Positions 1-5,574 of a stretch of DNA of 5,574 nucleotides are shown one piece after another (the stretch's first letter is position 1; each line of letters starts with the position of its first letter). Location of the stretch: the IMG/VR virus record IMGVR_UViG_2617270990_000009; one strand, written 5' to 3'. The position numbers and the translations under genes are program-made. This stretch comes from a virus. Taxonomy: Duplodnaviria; Heunggongvirae; Uroviricota; Caudoviricetes. The notes under the pieces were generated by a model. It was not told the DNA's origin. It searched no databases and saw only the letters and a list, made by a program, of their open reading frames with translations.

Positions 1-325
1 ATTTTTTCCAGAGGCGGTCGAACTCCGCCTTCGCAAAATAAGCGGAAGCCTGGCGAAGGATATCGTTACTGCGGCGCAGTTCACGATTTTCACGTTCCAG
101 CTCTTTCAGACGCTGACGTTCAGCGCTGGTGAGCCCACCATCACCGCCCCCGGTATCCCGCTCATGCTGGCGAACCCAGACACGCAGAGTCTCCGGCGTA
201 CAGCCAATCTTTGGGGCAATGGAACAAATTGCCGCCCACTGTGAGTCATATTCATCCTGACTTTCCAGAACCATACGAATCGCCCGCTGACGGACTTCGG
301 GGGAAAAACGAGTATTTTTAGTCAT
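1..325 (-). CDS. IS3-family transposase OrfA (HTH DNA-binding subunit), cut at window edge just at its stop codon
   Basis: ATG at 323..325 on the minus strand; translation identical to the 108-aa OrfA of the second copy ([22 protein letters not shown]...). RBS AGGTAAACAGG upstream. Confidence 0.85.
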
Positions 326-379
326 CCTGTTTACCTCTTTCTCAGGGAGTTTAGTCTCCAGGATTTCCGGGGCGGTTCA
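1..379 (-). mobile_element. IS3-family insertion sequence (IS629-like), partial copy A; left-end terminus at 379, remainder lies beyond window start
   Basis: Reverse complement of 1..379 is base-for-base identical to 4284..4662 of the second copy as far as I can read (position x pairs with 4663-x). Terminus reads TGAACCGCCCCGG, which I recall as the IS629/IS1203 end. Confidence 0.9.
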
Positions 380-791
380 CTCCGGCATCTTTTTTATTGG
401 TTTGGGGGAGTGGATTAATTACCCTCTCAAGGTGAGATTTATTGGTCCTGGAGTTTGGACTCGTGGATATAATCGTTCTTCGTGCGCACTCGGTATCATC
501 TTCGACATACTTGGTTGTTTCCTGATTGTTACAGGAGTCGTCAAGTTCTTCTGATGTAAAACCGCAAATGGGGCACGTAACGGGAATTTTGAAAAGCGTT
601 TCTCCGGGTTCCAGAACAAAATTTTCTGCGGTCTGATTTTGCTTCTCATATTTGTGCTCCGCGTCATTGTGAGAGCACATTCTTATTCTGAGTGCCTGTT
701 TAAACTCACTGAAGCTGAGAGCTTCTTCGCCTTCGGCAAGGCCTTCGAAGTATTCTTCGTAAGCCTTTTCCATGATTGTGTCGAAATCCAT
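351..791 (-). CDS. ydfB/ydfC-like protein of the dicB-operon region (Cys-rich, CPICG...C...C); 3' end chimeric, last ~9 codons and stop lie inside the IS terminus, so native C-terminus is probably lost
   Basis: Minus-strand ORF; likely start is [17 protein letters not shown] at 789..791, one base after the ydfA-like stop, with AGGTGA RBS. The six-frame ORF extends to 833 but that overlaps ydfA. The reading frame crosses the IS boundary at 379/380. From memory it resembles K-12 YdfB plus YdfC, which I cannot verify. Confidence 0.5.
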
Positions 792-792
792 A

Positions 793-948
793 TCACTCAC
801 CTGAGTTTCTTTCCAGCCAGCGACGGGCACCATTTTCGGTTTTAAACGTTTTGCTTTTGGTATACGTCATCGCGGTGAACGTGCCGTCCTGATTGGGGAA
901 CACGCCACATACCAGAGATTCGCTGTTGCCAAGATCGATAGTATCCAT
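793..948 (-). CDS. ydfA: YdfA-like small protein (51 aa, DUF1391-type), first gene of the dicB-type operon
   Basis: ATG at 946..948 (minus) preceded by GAGGT RBS; translation MDTIDLGNSESLVCGVFPNQDGTFTAMTYTKSKTFKTENGARRWLERNSGE. Sits downstream of dicA on the same strand, as in K-12 Qin. Confidence 0.6.
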   Translation of the reverse strand: MDTIDLGNSESLVCGVFPNQDGTFTAMTYTKSKTFKTENGARRWLERNSGE

Positions 949-1025
949 GCTGACCTCATTTCCCCTTAACGCCGGGGTGGCGGAACTGTTTGCTGAGAAC
1001 ACCGTGCGGTGTGTTGATGTAAACA

Positions 1026-1054
1026 AGATTAGTCATAACTAACATATTGGTCAA
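1026..1054 (-). promoter_or_regulatory. Putative sigma70 promoter for the ydfA operon (dicBp-like): -35 TTGACC, 17-bp spacer, -10 TAATCT (minus-strand reading)
   Basis: Reverse complement of 1049..1054 is TTGACC and of 1026..1031 is TAATCT, with a 17-nt spacer; an operator-like site overlaps the spacer and -10. Confidence 0.35.
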
Positions 1055-1080
1055 GTGATTTTGTATGTTATGGCTAACAT
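1029..1080. promoter_or_regulatory. Two operator-like imperfect palindromes with CTAACA half-sites (TTAGTCATAACTAACA at 1029..1044; TGTTATGGCTAACA at 1066..1079), candidate DicA/DicC binding sites
   Basis: They share the TGTTAG/CTAACA half-site with the palindrome in the dicA-dicC intergenic region. Confidence 0.4.
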
Positions 1081-1114
1081 AATTGATATAATAAAAGATA
1101 ACTCATTGATGATG

Positions 1115-1522
1115 TTATCTTTTATTTGTCCGCTGACGGGCTTTTAGTAATTCTTCAAAGAGTTTATTGAAATTTTTTACTCGAGCTCGCATTTCGGCGA
1201 GCTGGGTATCCTGTTCTGATTCTGGCAGTGCATTAAACAGCTCAAGGAGCTCTAGTTCTTTGGGGGCTAAGGCAACCGGCTTCTCAACAGGTGGTGTTGG
1301 TTGCTTGTCTTCATCGCCAAATAGAATCCATGTTGGTGAGCATTGCAATACTTTGCTGAGGGCAAAAAGGTTCTTCCCTGTAGGTTCACTATCATCCCGT
1401 TCCCATTGTGATACAGACACATGGGAGATTTTCAGGGCTTTAGCAAGAGACCTTTGGGTGTGTTTGAGGTTTTTCCGACGATACCTAATGCGTTCGCCGA
1501 TGGTTAAATTTTTTGTATCCAT
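1115..1522 (-). CDS. dicA: DicA, P22 C2-like HTH_XRE repressor of the cell-division-inhibition operon (prophage immunity repressor)
   Basis: 135-aa ORF MDTKNLTIGERIRYRRKNLKHTQRSLAKALKISHVSVSQWERDDSEPTGKNLFALSKVLQCSPTWILFGDE..., recognised as near-identical to E. coli K-12 DicA from memory. Divergent from a Cro-like gene. Confidence 0.9.
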   Translation of the reverse strand: MDTKNLTIGERIRYRRKNLKHTQRSLAKALKISHVSVSQWERDDSEPTGKNLFALSKVLQCSPTWILFGDEDKQPTPPVEKPVALAPKELELLELFNALPESEQDTQLAEMRARVKNFNKLFEELLKARQRTNKR

Positions 1523-1524
1523 AG

Positions 1525-1538
1525 TTAGCTAATGCTAA
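1525..1538. promoter_or_regulatory. Short inverted repeat TTAGC-TAAT-GCTAA next to the dicA start; possible operator half-site pair
   Basis: Seen directly in sequence; lies 3 bp upstream of the dicA ATG on the minus strand. Confidence 0.25.
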
Positions 1539-1544
1539 ATCGTA

Positions 1545-1573
1545 TTGACTATGTTTTTGTTAACATCTATTTT
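1545..1573 (+). promoter_or_regulatory. Putative dicC promoter: -35 TTGACT (1545..1550), 17-bp spacer, -10 TATTTT (1568..1573)
   Basis: Consensus-like hexamers at the correct spacing, about 30 nt upstream of the dicC ATG. Confidence 0.4.
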
Positions 1574-1590
1574 GTTAGCCATGACTAACA
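1573..1590. promoter_or_regulatory. 18-bp near-perfect palindrome TGTTAGCCATGACTAACA, candidate DicA/DicC operator overlapping the -10 and start region of the dicC promoter
   Basis: Reverse complement is TGTTAGTCATGGCTAACA, so 16 of 18 positions are symmetric. Related sites are at 1029..1044 and 1066..1079. Confidence 0.45.
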
Positions 1591-1605
1591 TCTAAGGTGT
1601 TTTAA

Positions 1606-1836
1606 ATGCTTAAAACTGACGCTCTTTTGTATTTCGGTTCAAAAACAAAACTTGCACAAGCAGCAGGTATTCGTTTGGCTTCGCTTTATAGCTGGAAAGG
1701 GGATTTAGTTCCCGAAGGTCGCGCGATGCGTCTACAGGAGGCATCTGGCGGGGAGCTTCAGTATGATCCCAAAGTTTATGACGAATATCGTAAGACGAAG
1801 CGGGCGGGGCGGTTGAACAATGAAAATCACTCCTGA
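1606..1836 (+). CDS. dicC: DicC, Cro-like small DNA-binding regulator
   Basis: 76-aa ORF MLKTDALLYFGSKTKLAQAAGIRLASLYSWKGDLVPEGRAMRLQEASGGELQYDPKVYDEYRKTKRAGRLNNENHS matching K-12 DicC from memory; AAGGTG RBS 6 nt upstream; divergent from dicA. Confidence 0.88.
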   Translation: MLKTDALLYFGSKTKLAQAAGIRLASLYSWKGDLVPEGRAMRLQEASGGELQYDPKVYDEYRKTKRAGRLNNENHS

Positions 1837-2341
1837 ACAGGCTCGTGAGGCTCTGGATGCCTGGATATGTCGACCAGGAATGACACAGGAGCAGGCGACG
1901 ATATTAATCACTGAAGCATTCTGGGCTTTGAAAGAGCGCCCGAACATCGATGTTCAGCGTGTCACATATGAAGGTGGCGCGGTTGATCAGCGAGCGCTTA
2001 GCGTTAATCGAGTGAAGATATTTGAACGCTGGAAGGCTATCGACACCAGGGATAAGCGTGAAAAGTTCACAGCGCTAGTGCCTGCAATTATGGAGGCTAT
2101 CCGGATTAGTGATTTCAGGTTGTATCGTGAAATTAGTGACGGAAAGAGCATTACGTACATGATCGCTGGGTTAAATAAAGAATATGGCGATGTGGTGGAG
2201 TCCGGACTGCTTTTTGCAGATCCTGCCGTTGTAGATCGTGAAACTGACGAACTTATAGAAAAAGCAATTGCTTTCAAGCTTGCGTATCGACAGCAATACC
2301 AACAAAAAGCTGGATGGAATTATGAGCCTTCTTTTTGCTGA
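1820..2341 (+). CDS. YdaT-like protein (proposed functional analogue of lambda CII in Rac/CP-933-type prophages)
   Basis: 173-aa ORF whose ATG overlaps the dicC stop by 17 nt. The internal motif KREKFTALVPAIMEAI resembles what I recall of Rac YdaT; position immediately after the cro-like gene fits. Family assignment is from memory. Confidence 0.55.
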   Translation: MKITPEQAREALDAWICRPGMTQEQATILITEAFWALKERPNIDVQRVTYEGGAVDQRALSVNRVKIFERWKAIDTRDKREKFTALVPAIMEAIRISDFRLYREISDGKSITYMIAGLNKEYGDVVESGLLFADPAVVDRETDELIEKAIAFKLAYRQQYQQKAGWNYEPSFC

Positions 2342-3287
2342 ACGCCCACTGGTTATAAACACACAGCTTGCGATGAAGATTGGCTTAAACGAAGCCATTG
2401 TGTTGCAGCAACTGCATTACTGGTTGAGAGATACCAATTCCGGCATGGAATGTGATGGTGTTCGCTGGATTTACAACACAACGGAACAATGGCTGGCGCA
2501 GTTCCCGTTCTGGTCAGAGTCAACGTTAAAGCGCGCGTTTGCAAGTCTGAAAACGCTGGGGCTTTTGCGTTGCGAAAAGCTCAATAAATCAAAGCGCGAC
2601 ATGACCAATTTCTACACGATCAACTATGGGAGCGATCTTTTAGATGGTGGCAAATTGAGCGAATCCATCAGTTCAAAATGCGTCGCTCCATCAGGTCAAA
2701 ATGACATGATGGAAGAGGTCAAAATGAAACGCTCCATTGGTTCAAAACGACCCAATGTCATCGGGTCAAAATGGCCCGATGATCCTACAGAGAATACAAC
2801 AGAGATTACTACAGAGAATAAAAACACTTTTCGTCCGGAAGCTTTGCAACCGGACCAGCAGACGGCTGAACAGGATTTTTTAATCCGGCACCCTGACGCA
2901 GTTGTGTTTAGTGCGAAAAAACGGCAGTGGGGTAGCAGGGAGGATTTGGCGTGTGCGCAGTGGATCTGGGGGCGGATCGTGGGTCTCTACGAACAGGCCG
3001 CCAGTGATGATGGCGAGATCATGCGACCAAAAGAGCCTAACTGGACTGCCTGGGCCAATGACGTGCGCACAATGCGGATGCTGGATGGCAGAAGCCACAG
3101 ACAAATTTGCGAAATGTTTGGTCGGGTACAGCGAGATCCATTCTGGGTCAAAAACATCATGAGTCCGTCAAAGCTTCGCGAAAAATGGGATGAGCTGGTT
3201 ATTCGCCTGGGGCGTTCGCCAATAAAGCGTTGTGTGAATCATATTTCTGAACCGGATACCGAAATTCCGCCTGGTTTCAGGGGATAA
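2322..3287 (+). CDS. Phage replication initiator, lambda O-like (N-terminal winged-helix iteron-binding domain, linker containing the origin repeats, C-terminal DnaT-like domain)
   Basis: Long ORF; preferred start ATG 2322 (MSLLFAERPLVINTQLAMKIGLNEAIVLQQLHYWL...) overlapping the upstream gene by 20 nt. The six-frame ORF begins at 2268. Iteron array lies inside the coding sequence, as in lambda O. Confidence 0.7.
   Translation: MSLLFAERPLVINTQLAMKIGLNEAIVLQQLHYWLRDTNSGMECDGVRWIYNTTEQWLAQFPFWSESTLKRAFASLKTLGLLRCEKLNKSKRDMTNFYTINYGSDLLDGGKLSESISSKCVAPSGQNDMMEEVKMKRSIGSKRPNVIGSKWPDDPTENTTEITTENKNTFRPEALQPDQQTAEQDFLIRHPDAVVFSAKKRQWGSREDLACAQWIWGRIVGLYEQAASDDGEIMRPKEPNWTAWANDVRTMRMLDGRSHRQICEMFGRVQRDPFWVKNIMSPSKLREKWDELVIRLGRSPIKRCVNHISEPDTEIPPGFRG
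2664..2780. repeat. Origin-like iteron array: five direct repeats with core G(G/T)TCAAAA(T/C)G at ~23-bp spacing
   Basis: TCAAAA cores at 2673, 2696, 2719, 2742 and 2767; units 1 and 2 also share the TCCATCAG prefix. Located in the linker-coding part of the O-like gene. Confidence 0.6.
2787..2822. repeat. Three in-frame 12-bp tandem repeats ACAGAGA(A/T)TA.. (AT-rich), encoding TENT-TEIT-TENK; candidate DNA-unwinding element next to the iterons
   Basis: ACAGAGAATACA / ACAGAGATTACT / ACAGAGAATAAA read directly from the sequence, immediately 3' of the iteron array. Confidence 0.7.
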
Positions 3288-3327
3288 GTGTTGATTTCAG
3301 GTCATGAGGTAATTTTAAGGGGGACTT

Positions 3328-3756
3328 GTGGCAAAAGTTTTTACACAAGAAGAGCGGGAAAAAATTAAAGGGCAGGTGGTGGAACTCGTGCGCCAGAGCG
3401 GTCGTGAGACGTTACGGCAACTGGAAGCCAAGACAGGTGCGACAAGATATCTGATGAGCGCTCTTGCCAGAGAGCTGGTTGCCAGTGGCGATGTATACAA
3501 CTCTGGTTACGGGTTATTCCCGTCTGAACAGGCCCGTAAGGACTGGCAAAACGCCCGCAAAAAACTCTCGAGGGCAAAGGTGAAGAAACCCGCTGCGGTT
3601 GATCCAGACCTTATCTGGTCATTAGCTGACGGAGAAATACGTCGTTACGACAGACATCATAATATAATTTGTAGTGAGTGCCGTAAAAGCGAAGTTATGC
3701 AGCGTATATTGTCTTTTTATCAGGGAAATGTTCGATATTTATTGAAGTATCAATAA
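3328..3756 (+). CDS. Hypothetical 142-aa protein (possible winged-helix N-terminus; HH..C..C cluster near C-terminus); function unknown
   Basis: GTG start at 3328 preceded by a strong SD (TAAGGGGGA); ORF uninterrupted. I do not recognise a family. Confidence 0.55.
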   Translation: MAKVFTQEEREKIKGQVVELVRQSGRETLRQLEAKTGATRYLMSALARELVASGDVYNSGYGLFPSEQARKDWQNARKKLSRAKVKKPAAVDPDLIWSLADGEIRRYDRHHNIICSECRKSEVMQRILSFYQGNVRYLLKYQ

Positions 3757-3851
3757 CCTATTTAAACATTCCTTAAACTCAGAGTAGACTGGGTTAACAA
3801 TCTGTTTCAATTGCAAATTGACAATCTATAGCCAGCGCGACGGGAGTGTTC

Positions 3852-4283
3852 ATGTTTAGTCAGGTTGACATCGGTAGTTTCGGTAGTTTTACGGACCTCA
3901 GTTGGAAAAATAGCCTTAAGGATGCAGGTAACAATGTCCAGAATTTCAAGAGGCTTAACATCCTCTACGGACGGAACTACTCTGGTAAAACTACACTCTC
4001 ACGAATTTTCCGCGCTTTGGAAACGGGGCGCATTCCACATAACTACGTGGACCCAAATTTTACTATTCGTGGTGACAAAGGTGATGTGACACAGGTAGGT
4101 CTTGCTGGTCATGGCTACGATGTTCGCGTCTACAACCGGGATTTTGTGAGCGATAACCTAAACTTCTTGGTCAATCAGACCGACGGCGAGATCAAGACGT
4201 TTGCTATCGTTGGTGAAAAGAATAAAGAAATCGAAGATGCCATTACCGCAATTCAAACTAGGTTAGGCAGTGTTGAATCGAAG
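3852..4283 (+). pseudogene. N-terminal fragment (144 codons) of a P-loop ATPase (Walker A GRNYSGKTT; resembles AAA_13 / RloC-PrrC-like or related defence ATPases), truncated by the IS insertion
   Basis: ATG 3852 with GGGAG RBS 5 nt upstream (GTG 3846 also in frame). Motifs NILYGRNYSGKTTLSRIF and VRVYNRDFVSDNLNFL. Reading frame terminates on TGA at 4284..4286, which is the first three bases of the IS terminus. Proteins of this type are normally several hundred aa. Confidence 0.65.
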
Positions 4284-4337
4284 TGAACCGCCCCGGAAAT
4301 CCTGGAGACTAAACTCCCTGAGAAAGAGGTAAACAGG

Positions 4338-4664
4338 ATGACTAAAAATACTCGTTTTTCCCCCGAAGTCCGTCAGCGGGCGATTCGTATGGTTCTGGAA
4401 AGTCAGGATGAATATGACTCACAGTGGGCGGCAATTTGTTCCATTGCCCCAAAGATTGGCTGTACGCCGGAGACTCTGCGTGTCTGGGTTCGCCAGCATG
4501 AGCGGGATACCGGGGGCGGTGATGGTGGGCTCACCAGCGCTGAACGTCAGCGTCTGAAAGAGCTGGAACGTGAAAATCGTGAACTGCGCCGCAGTAACGA
4601 TATCCTTCGCCAGGCTTCCGCTTATTTTGCGAAGGCGGAGTTCGACCGCCTCTGGAAAAAATGA
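4338..4664 (+). CDS. IS3-family transposase OrfA (HTH subunit)
   Basis: 108-aa [33 protein letters not shown]... with leucine-zipper-like C-terminus; GAGG RBS upstream. Confidence 0.9.
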
Positions 4665-5551
4665 TGCCACTGCTGGATAAGCTGCGTGAGCAGTACGGGG
4701 TCGGACCGGTATGCAGCGAACTGCATATTGCCCCGTCAACGTATTACCATTGTCAGCAACAGCGACATCATCCGGATAAACGCAGTGCCCGTGCGCAGCA
4801 CGACGACTGGCTGAAGAGAGAGATACAGCGCGTATACGATGAAAATCATCAGGTGTACGGTGTGCGTAAAGTCTGGCGTCAGTTGTTACGGGAAGGAATC
4901 AGGGTGGCCAGATGTACAGTGGCACGTCTCATGGCGGTTATGGGACTTGCCGGTGTTCTCCGGGGTAAAAAGGTCCGTACGACCATCAGCCGGAAAGCCG
5001 TTGCCGCAGGCGACCGCGTAAACCGTCAGTTCGTGGCAGAACGACCTGACCAGCTGTGGGTGGCTGATTTTACTTACGTCAGCACATGGCAGGGCTTCGT
5101 CTATGTGGCGTTTATCATTGATGTGTTTGCCGGATACATCGTGGGGTGGCGGGTCTCATCGTCTATGGAAACGACATTCGTGCTGGATGCGCTGGAGCAG
5201 GCGTTGTGGGCCCGTCGTCCGTCTGGCACCATCCATCACAGCGATAAAGGCTCTCAGTATGTGTCACTGGCCTATACGGAGCGACTAAAAGAAGCCGGAT
5301 TACTGGCATCAACAGGGAGTACAGGCGACTCGTATGACAACGCGATGGCTGAGAGCATCAATGGTCTTTACAAAGCGGAGGTAATACACCGTAAGAGCTG
5401 GAAAAACCGTGCAGAAGTGGAACTGGCCACACTAACGTGGGTGGACTGGTATAACAATCGACGATTGCTGGGAAGGCTGGGCCATACTCCTCCGGCAGAA
5501 GCAGAAAAAGCTTATTATGCTTCCATCGGAAACGATGATCTGGCAGCCTGA
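4661..5551 (+). CDS. IS3-family transposase OrfB (DDE catalytic domain), expressed as an OrfAB fusion by -1 frameshifting
   Basis: 296-aa ORF in -1 frame relative to orfA, overlapping it by 4 nt (ATGA); DDE-type motifs ([24 protein letters not shown]). Confidence 0.9.
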
Positions 5552-5574
5552 GTTCACAGATAAAACACTCTCCA

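What the first reader, a model, noticed from the sequence alone, without database searches (positions are those of the whole stretch)
3852..4286. Defence-type P-loop ATPase gene cut by an IS, with the IS terminus supplying the stop codon
The ATPase ORF runs for 144 codons and terminates exactly on the TGA that begins the IS inverted repeat at 4284. This is a clean insertional truncation. The N-terminal motifs (FGSF...W, NILYGRNYSGKTTLSRIF, VRVYNRDFV) look like the ABC/SMC-like ATPases of anticodon-nuclease or abortive-infection systems (AAA_13 / RloC-PrrC-like), though I cannot assign the family with certainty. The IS has probably inactivated a prophage-borne defence or toxin gene.
Basis: partly seen in the sequence, partly recalled or inferred. 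Interest (0 to 1): 0.6.

Follow-up and report, generated by a model that had tools for sequence, protein, structure and literature searches.

The report
IS-truncated RloC-like anticodon nuclease gene
A common E. coli insertion sequence (IS1203/IS629) has cut a 798-codon RloC-type phage-defence gene in a Qin-like cryptic prophage after codon 144, leaving a dead stub; this is an ordinary pseudogene, not a new system.

Summary
An ORF runs from ATG 3852 for 144 codons and ends on TGA 4284-4286, the first three bases of the left inverted repeat of an IS1203/IS629 element. An IS-free allele in E. coli T309.Ta3 is collinear up to base 4283 and continues to 798 codons.

The family guess is also right and can be sharpened. 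The intact protein matches Pfam AAA_13 end to end (E 3e-152) and the PADLOC candidate PDC-S06. It carries every published hallmark of RloC, the Rad50-like, zinc-hook, wobble-nucleotide-excising anticodon nuclease:
- Walker A K46
- C293-x2-C296
- LSEGE signature
- Walker B D574
- H619
- R700-x3-E704...H748

All of these are invariant across 81 homologues of 32-72% identity.

The host element is a Qin-like cryptic prophage. The gene sits where K-12 Qin carries flxA-ydfV-relBE.

The in-frame TGA is a one-in-three coincidence; the other two frames stop 26 and 46 nt into the IS.

The window is a whole draft contig that ends inside identical, inverted IS copies on both sides. I therefore could not show whether the 3' part of the gene survives. 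At least three other independent lesions hit this gene in other strains.

Verdict: ordinary, low interest.

The parts
1..379 (-). Partial second copy of the same IS1203/IS629 element in inverted orientation. Its left inverted repeat ends at 379, and the contig starts inside it.
   Evidence: The reverse complement of 1-379 is identical (0 mismatches in 379) to 4284-4662. It contains the orfA HTH_Tnp_1 gene.
380..4283 (.). Qin-like cryptic-prophage segment. It holds a ydfB/C-region ORF, ydfA (DUF1391), a dicA-like repressor, a dicC/Cro-like gene, a YdaT-like gene, an O-like replication protein, a DUF977 gene and the 5' part of the ATPase gene.
   Evidence: 99.97% identical to E. coli T309.Ta3 over L001 5081-8984. 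Annotation; Pfam hits.
3842..3846 (+). Shine-Dalgarno-like GGGAG, 5 nt upstream of the ATG at 3852.
   Evidence: Read directly from the sequence.
3852..4283 (+). Codons 1-144 of an RloC-family (AAA_13) gene. This covers the N-terminal lobe of the ABC head and the first turns of the coiled coil.
   Evidence: Identical to residues 1-144 of the 798-aa protein P0002/WP_032280029.1. Pfam AAA_13 E 8.6e-29. PADLOC PDC-S06 positions 1-144 of 790.
3969..3995 (+). Walker A P-loop GRNYSGKTT (residues 40-48). It is the only catalytic motif left in the stub.
   Evidence: Motif scan. G40, N42, G45 and K46 are invariant in 81 homologues.
4284..4286 (+). TGA stop codon, which is also the first three bases of the IS left inverted repeat.
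4284..5574 (+). IS1203/IS629 (IS3 family), 1291 bp. By my recollection of the published 1310-bp IS629 sequence, about the last 19 bp lie beyond the contig end.
   Evidence: 100% identical to annotated IS1203 copies. orfA 4338-4664 is HTH_Tnp_1; orfB 4661-5551 is HTH_21 plus rve.
4619..4735 (+). ALIL pseudoknot, the frameshift-stimulating RNA element at the orfA/orfB overlap of the IS.
   Evidence: Rfam RF01497, 121.5 bits, E 3.9e-32.

Best explanation
The ORF at 3852-4286 is the 5' remnant of a 798-codon RloC-family gene carried by a Qin-like cryptic prophage of E. coli. An IS1203/IS629 element now abuts nucleotide 432 of the gene, and its terminal TGA happens to be in frame.

By inference from the characterised Geobacillus RloC, the intact protein is a single-gene abortive-infection device. 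It has a Rad50-like ABC ATPase head split by a long coiled coil that is tipped with a CxxC zinc hook. That head responds to DNA ends or damage and, through ATP hydrolysis, switches on a C-terminal HEPN-type anticodon nuclease. The nuclease cuts tRNA anticodon loops and stops translation.

The 144-residue stub keeps only the Walker A lobe. It lacks the zinc hook, ABC signature, Walker B, switch histidine and nuclease, so this allele is null.

Shown here: the junction, the IS identity, the length of the intact allele, the motif set and the Rad50-like fold. Inferred: tRNase activity, a defence role, and loss of function.
For: **Junction and intact allele.**

**IS identity.**

**Family assignment.**
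- AAA_13 matches residues 23-773, covering profile positions 6-712 of 713, at E 3.3e-152.
- PADLOC PDC-S06 covers residues 1-794 of a 790-position profile.
- JGI names homologues of 76-82% identity 'wobble nucleotide-excising tRNase'.

**Motifs.** In 81 homologues of 32-72% identity the invariant residues are K46, C293, C296, S543, G545, E546, D574, D575, H619, R700, E704 and H748; R741 is nearly invariant. The published functional residues of GkaRloC are K44, C291, D572, R692, E696 and H737 (PMC2610378, PMC3458546). Bacillaceae family members have K44, C288-290, D570-572, R693-695, E697-699 and H738.

**Gene context.** There is no conserved partner gene. Neighbourhoods are mobile or defence-island-like.

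**Loss of function.** GkaRloC mutants K44N and D572N lose in vivo nuclease activity (PMC3458546). Neither the stub nor a Walker-A-less remnant should therefore be active.
Against: - No enzyme assay or phage test exists for this protein.
- PADLOC lists the family only as an unvalidated candidate (PDC-S06).
- I could not align it directly to the GkaRloC sequence, which I could not retrieve. The link rests on motif order and positions and on an automated COG-type name.
- The PADLOC PrrC model matches only the ATPase core (residues 498-629).
- No solved structure matches by sequence.
- The structural searches were dominated by the ATPase head, so the HEPN fold of the C-terminal domain was not tested separately.
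- The other side of the IS is outside the contig, so a simple insertion is not proven.
Confidence: 0.85

Rival explanations
1. This is not a simple insertion. The two identical, inverted IS copies at 1-379 and 4284-5574 mark an IS-mediated rearrangement, such as a deletion, an inversion or a composite-transposon-like unit. In that case the 3' 654 codons are deleted or lie elsewhere in the genome.
For: - Both ends of the 3.9-kb prophage segment abut the same IS end.
- IS-associated deletion of this same gene exists in strain A23, through IS1.
- The predicted downstream junction (IS right end + 3-4 bp duplication + GCGGGTCTCC...) was absent from the viral and JGI metagenome collections.
Against: - C-terminal remnants of 567-572 aa, identical to the intact allele, are annotated on contigs of about 5.5-5.7 kb in draft E. 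coli genomes 3-105-05_S1_C1/C3 and 3-475-03_S4_C2. This is what a simple insertion would leave.
- The ECCHD184 allele is a simple IS629-type insertion with a 4-bp duplication.
- The collections I scanned probably do not hold this strain.
Confidence: 0.3
2. The intact protein is an SMC/Rad50-like AAA_13 ATPase that acts on DNA, or has some other non-defence role, and is not an anticodon nuclease.
For: - The structural hits are all DNA-handling ABC ATPases such as Rad50, SMC, RecF and LmuB.
- NCBI names it only 'AAA family ATPase'.
- No NCBIfam model reached its cut-off.
Against: - The C-terminal R700-x3-E704 and R741-x6-H748 residues are invariant or nearly so across 81 diverse homologues. They sit where the GkaRloC nuclease triad sits (PMC2610378).
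- Rx4-6H is the HEPN RNase signature that has been assigned to RloC and PrrC (PMC3710099).
Confidence: 0.12
3. The IS-gene junction is a draft-assembly chimera produced by repeat collapse.
For: The window is an entire 5574-bp draft contig whose two ends lie in a multicopy repeat.
Against: - The identical 50-nt junction occurs in four independent assemblies from different sources.
- The 144-aa product is a RefSeq protein, WP_032246507.1.
Confidence: 0.02
4. The 144-aa stub is kept because it is useful, for example as a dominant-negative or antitoxin-like fragment that neutralises RloC-type proteins.
For: The same truncated allele recurs in several samples.
Against: - Recurrence fits clonal spread.
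- The stub lacks the zinc hook and the second half of the ATPase head. By analogy with Rad50, these parts mediate dimerisation.
- Other lesions in the gene are of unrelated types and positions, as expected for plain decay.
Confidence: 0.03

Closest known systems
RloC (Geobacillus kaustophilus GkaRloC; Davidov & Kaufmann 2008, PMC2610378; Klaiman et al. 2012, PMC3458546)
   Same: - About 800 aa, encoded by a stand-alone gene.
- ABC ATPase motifs.
- A coiled-coil insert carrying a CxxC zinc hook.
- A C-terminal Arg-x3-Glu...His nuclease triad.
- Motif positions nearly superimposable: K46, C293, D574, R700, E704 and H748 here, against K44, C291, D572, R692, E696 and H737 in GkaRloC.
   Different: - No biochemical data exist for the E. 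coli protein.
- It is carried by a Qin-like cryptic prophage.
- The copy in the window is cut after codon 144 and keeps only Walker A.
PrrC anticodon nuclease (E. coli prr locus)
   Same: An ABC-type ATPase fused to a C-terminal HEPN-type anticodon nuclease with an R/E/H triad. The PADLOC PrrC model matches residues 498-629.
   Different: By the published description, PrrC lacks the coiled-coil/zinc-hook insert and always lies inside a type Ic restriction-modification locus. Here there are no R-M neighbours.
PADLOC candidate PDC-S06
   Same: The best model, PDLC04887, matches over the full length at 1067 bits.
   Different: PDC-S06 is a computational candidate with no assigned mechanism (10.1101/2025.01.08.631966). 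The motif evidence here suggests that this subfamily corresponds to RloC.
APECO1_4465-type ABC-HEPN proteins of E. coli prophages (Anantharaman et al. 2013, PMC3710099)
   Same: An ABC ATPase fused to a HEPN RNase, reported in prophages.
   Different: I did not compare the sequences, so the relationship beyond shared architecture is unknown.
IS629/IS1203 insertional inactivation in E. coli (PMC3271280)
   Same: The same element (100% identity), known to disrupt genes and prophage regions and to make 3-4 bp target duplications.
   Different: Nothing unusual. The target duplication cannot be checked here because the right end of the IS is off the contig.

Membership tests
RloC (intact allele, WP_032280029.1) | ABC ATPase motifs: Walker A, signature, Walker B/D-loop and switch His. 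| tested here: met
   GRNYSGKTT at 40-48, LSEGE at 542, IIYIDDPISSLD at 570 and STHN at 617. The key residues are invariant in 81 homologues.
RloC (intact allele) | A coiled-coil insert with a CxxC zinc hook between Walker A and the signature motif, giving a Rad50-like head. | tested here: met
   C293 and C296 are invariant. The model has long helices over 146-510 with the CxxC in a break between them. The top fold matches are Rad50 and SMC.
RloC (intact allele) | C-terminal anticodon-nuclease triad Arg-x3-Glu...His (HEPN Rx4-6H). | tested here: met
   R700, E704 and H748 are invariant, and R741-x6-H748 is nearly so. The equivalent GkaRloC residues are R692, E696 and H737 (PMC2610378).
RloC (intact allele) | Direct sequence homology to an experimentally characterised RloC. 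| tested here: inconclusive
   The GkaRloC sequence was not retrievable. The evidence is indirect. Bacillaceae family members carry motifs at GkaRloC's published positions, and JGI names homologues 'wobble nucleotide-excising tRNase'.
RloC (intact allele) | Wobble-nucleotide-excising tRNase activity that is DNA- and ATP-dependent. | not testable with these tools
   This needs biochemistry.
RloC (the ORF actually in the window, 3852-4286) | Possession of the zinc hook, signature motif, Walker B and nuclease domain. | tested here: not met
   Only residues 1-144 are encoded. The window holds a pseudogene remnant, not a functional member.
PrrC | Embedded in a type Ic R-M (hsd) locus, with no coiled-coil insert. 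| tested here: not met
   The neighbours are prophage genes. The protein is 798 aa with a coiled-coil insert. The PrrC model matches only residues 498-629.
Pfam AAA_13 (PF13166) | Score above the gathering threshold of 36 bits. | tested here: met
   The fragment scores 101.2 bits and the intact protein 509.2 bits.
IS629/IS1203 (IS3 family) | A terminal TG...CA inverted repeat, orfA (HTH) and orfB (DDE rve) with a frameshift signal, and near-identity to reference copies. | tested here: met
   The left end reads TGAACCGCCCC.
IS629/IS1203 (IS3 family) | A 3-4 bp target-site duplication flanking this copy. | not testable with these tools
   The right end of the IS and its flank lie beyond the contig. 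The related insertion in ECCHD184 shows a 4-bp CTGG duplication.
Qin-type cryptic prophage | Synteny ydfA-dicA-dicC...hokD-rem-ydfU-ydfT, next to rspAB/intQ. | tested here: met
   The window is collinear with L001. The chromosomal position appears in L002 and L013. K-12 Qin is shown.

The most novel reading that the evidence does not exclude
The orphan PADLOC candidate family PDC-S06 is the RloC anticodon-nuclease family under another name. Its Qin-borne E. coli member is costly enough to be knocked out repeatedly. I found at least four independent lesions among about 20 near-identical alleles: IS1203 at nt 432, an IS629-like element at nt 955-958, a 397-bp deletion, and an IS1-linked 5' deletion. 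This would give a testable case of self-toxicity shaping the loss of an abortive-infection gene.
Probability: 0.4. Interest if true: 0.3.

Novelty: already known. Interest (0 to 1): 0.12.

Why it matters
It matters little as a discovery. IS629/IS1203 disrupting prophage genes is routine in E. coli, and RloC-type ABC-HEPN nucleases have been described since 2008.

There are three practical points:
- The 144-aa RefSeq protein WP_032246507.1 ('AAA family ATPase') is a pseudogene product and should not be counted as a defence gene.
- PADLOC's PDC-S06 hit here can be read as RloC-like, which supplies a mechanism for an otherwise unnamed candidate.
- The slot between DUF977 and hokD in Qin-type prophages is a variable cargo site. 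It holds relBE in K-12 and this nuclease here.

Tried and rejected
- **Source genome in the complete E. coli collection.** No record spans either IS junction. The window turned out to be draft contig JNSB01000129.1 of GCA_000705005.1.
- **Contigs carrying C-terminal remnants.** I tried to fetch them for P0125 and P0134 to see the other IS junction.
- **Predicted downstream junction and observed junction.** I scanned the viral contigs for both and the JGI metagenomes for the predicted downstream junction only. There were 0 hits.
- **First structure prediction.** It used a shallow alignment of 75-100% identity and was poor (pLDDT 60), so I discarded it. The second, from an alignment of 81 diverse sequences, was good.
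- **PDB sequence searches.** They gave only spurious coiled-coil matches.
- **afdb50 fold library.** It was unavailable.
- **Sequenced phages.** None carry a close homologue. The only hits are about 24% identical, including Streptococcus prophage genes annotated 'translation-disabling ACNase'.
- **Short upstream extension of IS matches in O157:H7.** IS matches there begin at query base 137, about 14 nt before the IS boundary. At that locus the IS sits among tail-fibre genes and no ATPase gene is annotated.
- **Meaning of the in-frame TGA.** I considered that it might be significant and rejected the idea. It is a 1-in-3 frame coincidence.

Full report
**What the window is.** The 5574-bp window is identical to a whole draft contig, JNSB01000129.1 of assembly GCA_000705005.1.
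- Bases 380-4283 match a Qin-like cryptic prophage of E. coli T309.Ta3 with one mismatch in 3904 bp (L001 5081-8984).
- The gene order is a ydfB/C-region ORF, ydfA (DUF1391), a dicA-like repressor, a dicC/Cro-like gene, a YdaT-like gene, an O-like protein and a DUF977 gene, followed by the ATPase gene.
- Both contig ends lie inside the same insertion sequence. Bases 4284-5574 are 100% identical to copies annotated 'IS3-like element IS1203 family'.
- That IS has orfA (HTH_Tnp_1), orfB (HTH_21 plus rve) and an ALIL frameshift pseudoknot at 4619-4735.
- Bases 1-379 are the reverse complement of the first 379 bp of that IS, with no mismatch.

**Check of the observation.** The ORF from ATG 3852 encodes 144 residues and ends at TGA 4284-4286.
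- A GGGAG sits 5 nt upstream of the ATG.
- Homology with the IS-free allele stops exactly at 4283, and the next base starts the IS left end TGAACCGCCCC.
- The same 50-nt junction occurs in a Logan assembly of SRR1186650 and in two ENA metagenome assemblies. The junction is real, and the allele circulates.
- The coincidence of stop codon and IS end has no special meaning. It depends only on frame, and the other two frames stop 26 and 46 nt into the IS.
- In strain ECCHD184 a related IS sits in another frame of the same gene, and the annotated ORF runs 29 nt into it.

**What the gene is.** In T309.Ta3 and 12 other complete genomes the gene is 2397 bp, encoding 798 aa.
- The window's 144 residues are identical to the N-terminus of that protein, P0002/WP_032280029.1.
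- The intact protein matches Pfam AAA_13 over the whole profile (E 3.3e-152) and PADLOC PDC-S06 over its whole length. The PADLOC PrrC model matches only residues 498-629.
- An exhaustive search found 3901 clusters at 50% identity with E <= 1e-3, of which 1067 have E <= 1e-30. Nearly all of the best 150 are 770-830 aa and align end to end.
- JGI names homologues of 76-82% identity 'wobble nucleotide-excising tRNase', which is the RloC name.

**Membership in the RloC family.** In an alignment of 81 members sharing 32-72% identity with the query, the invariant residues form four groups:
- Walker A: G40, N42, G45, K46.
- Zinc hook: C293 and C296.
- ATPase core: signature S543, G545, E546; Walker B D574, D575; D-loop S579, L580, D581; switch H619.
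- C-terminal nuclease: R700, E704, S747, H748, with R741 nearly invariant.

The residues shown by mutagenesis to matter in Geobacillus kaustophilus RloC are K44, C291, D572, R692, E696 and H737 (PMC2610378, PMC3458546). Members of the present family from Bacillaceae carry the same motifs at K44, C288-290, D570-572, R693-695, E697-699 and H738. R741-x6-H748 fits the HEPN Rx4-6H RNase signature that has been assigned to RloC and PrrC (PMC3710099).

I could not align the protein directly to GkaRloC or test the enzyme. Membership is therefore strongly supported but not formally closed.

**How it most likely works.** This part is inferred from the published RloC work.
- The ATPase head with its zinc-hook coiled coil responds to DNA ends or damage.
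- ATP hydrolysis then activates the C-terminal nuclease, which cuts tRNA anticodon loops and stops translation. The result is an abortive-infection response (PMC2610378, PMC3458546, PMC3874168).
- The stub in the window ends just as the coiled coil begins and keeps only Walker A.
- GkaRloC mutants K44N and D572N lose in vivo nuclease activity (PMC3458546). Neither the stub nor any Walker-A-less downstream remnant should therefore be active. The allele is null.

**Context and distribution.**
- In K-12 Qin the slot between the dicC side and hokD holds ydfX/W, flxA, ydfV and relBE. Here it holds YdaT, O, DUF977 and the nuclease gene, followed by sok/hokD.
- The gene is rare: 19 of 5426 complete E. 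coli genomes carry it.
- An allele of 89% identity lies in an integrase-bearing island next to a DEAD/DEAH helicase gene.
- Homologues of 78% identity in Ralstonia lie beside genes encoding HNH_5 and SMEK_N domain proteins. A Proteus homologue of 87% identity lies beside phage lysis genes and IS elements. No partner gene is conserved, which fits a single-gene system.
- The family spans Proteobacteria, Bacteroidota, Firmicutes, Spirochaetes and some archaea.
- No sequenced phage among 50,697 records carries a close homologue.

**Recurrent decay.** Among the 17 near-identical alleles in complete genomes, 13 are intact. The lesions in the rest are:
- ECCHD184: an IS629-like insertion with a 4-bp CTGG duplication at nt 955-958.
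- STEC1589 and STEC1590: a shared 397-bp deletion.
- A23: an IS1-linked deletion of the first 706 nt.

In addition, 13 draft contigs all start at codon 176 of the gene. That suggests a repeat boundary there, but I did not resolve it. Such decay is unremarkable for a cryptic-prophage gene. It could also reflect a cost of carrying a self-toxic nuclease.

**What remains open.** The contig ends inside the IS, so the window cannot show what lies beyond it.
- Two inverted IS copies bracket the 3.9-kb segment. This allows a simple pair of insertions, an IS-mediated deletion or inversion, or a composite-transposon-like unit.
- C-terminal remnants of 567-572 aa, identical to the intact allele, are annotated in draft genomes E. 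coli 3-105-05_S1_C1/C3 and 3-475-03_S4_C2. That is what a simple insertion would leave. I could not tie them to this assembly.
- Scans for the predicted downstream junction found nothing.

**Verdict.** The finding is an ordinary IS-generated pseudogene of a known kind of defence gene. Interest is low.

Noticed in passing
window 1-379 and 351-833 (- strand); L001 4917-5534: A second, inverted copy of the same IS abuts base 380. It truncates an unannotated 205-codon ORF (the ydfB/ydfC region downstream of ydfA) after codon 151, and the IS supplies 9 codons plus a stop. Both ends of the 3.9-kb prophage segment therefore face the same IS end, which is a composite-transposon-like geometry.
   Followed up: partly
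window 379/380 = L001 5080/5081; DicF at L001 4605-4656: The left IS separates the dicA-ydfA side from the DicF sRNA and dicB, which lie beyond the junction in the IS-free allele. No DicF was found in the window. If this is a simple insertion, it could uncouple the toxic cell-division inhibitors DicF and DicB from their upstream promoter region.
   Followed up: partly
L002 (ECCHD184) 9510-10819; L009 (STEC1590) 6553-8552; L013 (A23) 4288-6691: The same nuclease gene carries independent lesions in other strains. ECCHD184 has an IS629-like insertion with a 4-bp CTGG duplication. STEC1590 has a 397-bp internal deletion. A23 has an IS1-linked deletion that also removes the left half of the prophage.
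   Followed up: yes
L007 and L008, position 1 (= codon 176 of the gene): Thirteen draft contigs from different assemblies all begin at the same base inside the gene. This suggests another repeat or IS boundary in a further lineage. The cause was not determined.
   Followed up: no
L001 8553-10949 versus K-12 L010 5347-6738: The slot upstream of hokD/sok in Qin-type prophages is variable cargo. K-12 has flxA-ydfV-relBE there, and this lineage has the RloC-like gene.
   Followed up: partly
family-wide: The protein is unusually conserved across distant taxa, with 77-78% identity between E. coli and Burkholderia, Ralstonia, Caballeronia and Geomesophilobacter. This points to recent horizontal spread under strong constraint. 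A 45%-identical copy occurs in a Methanophagales archaeon MAG.
   Followed up: no
window 1037: The single difference from the T309.Ta3 prophage across 3904 bp (A here, G there) lies in the intergenic region between ydfA and the dicA-like repressor gene.
   Followed up: no
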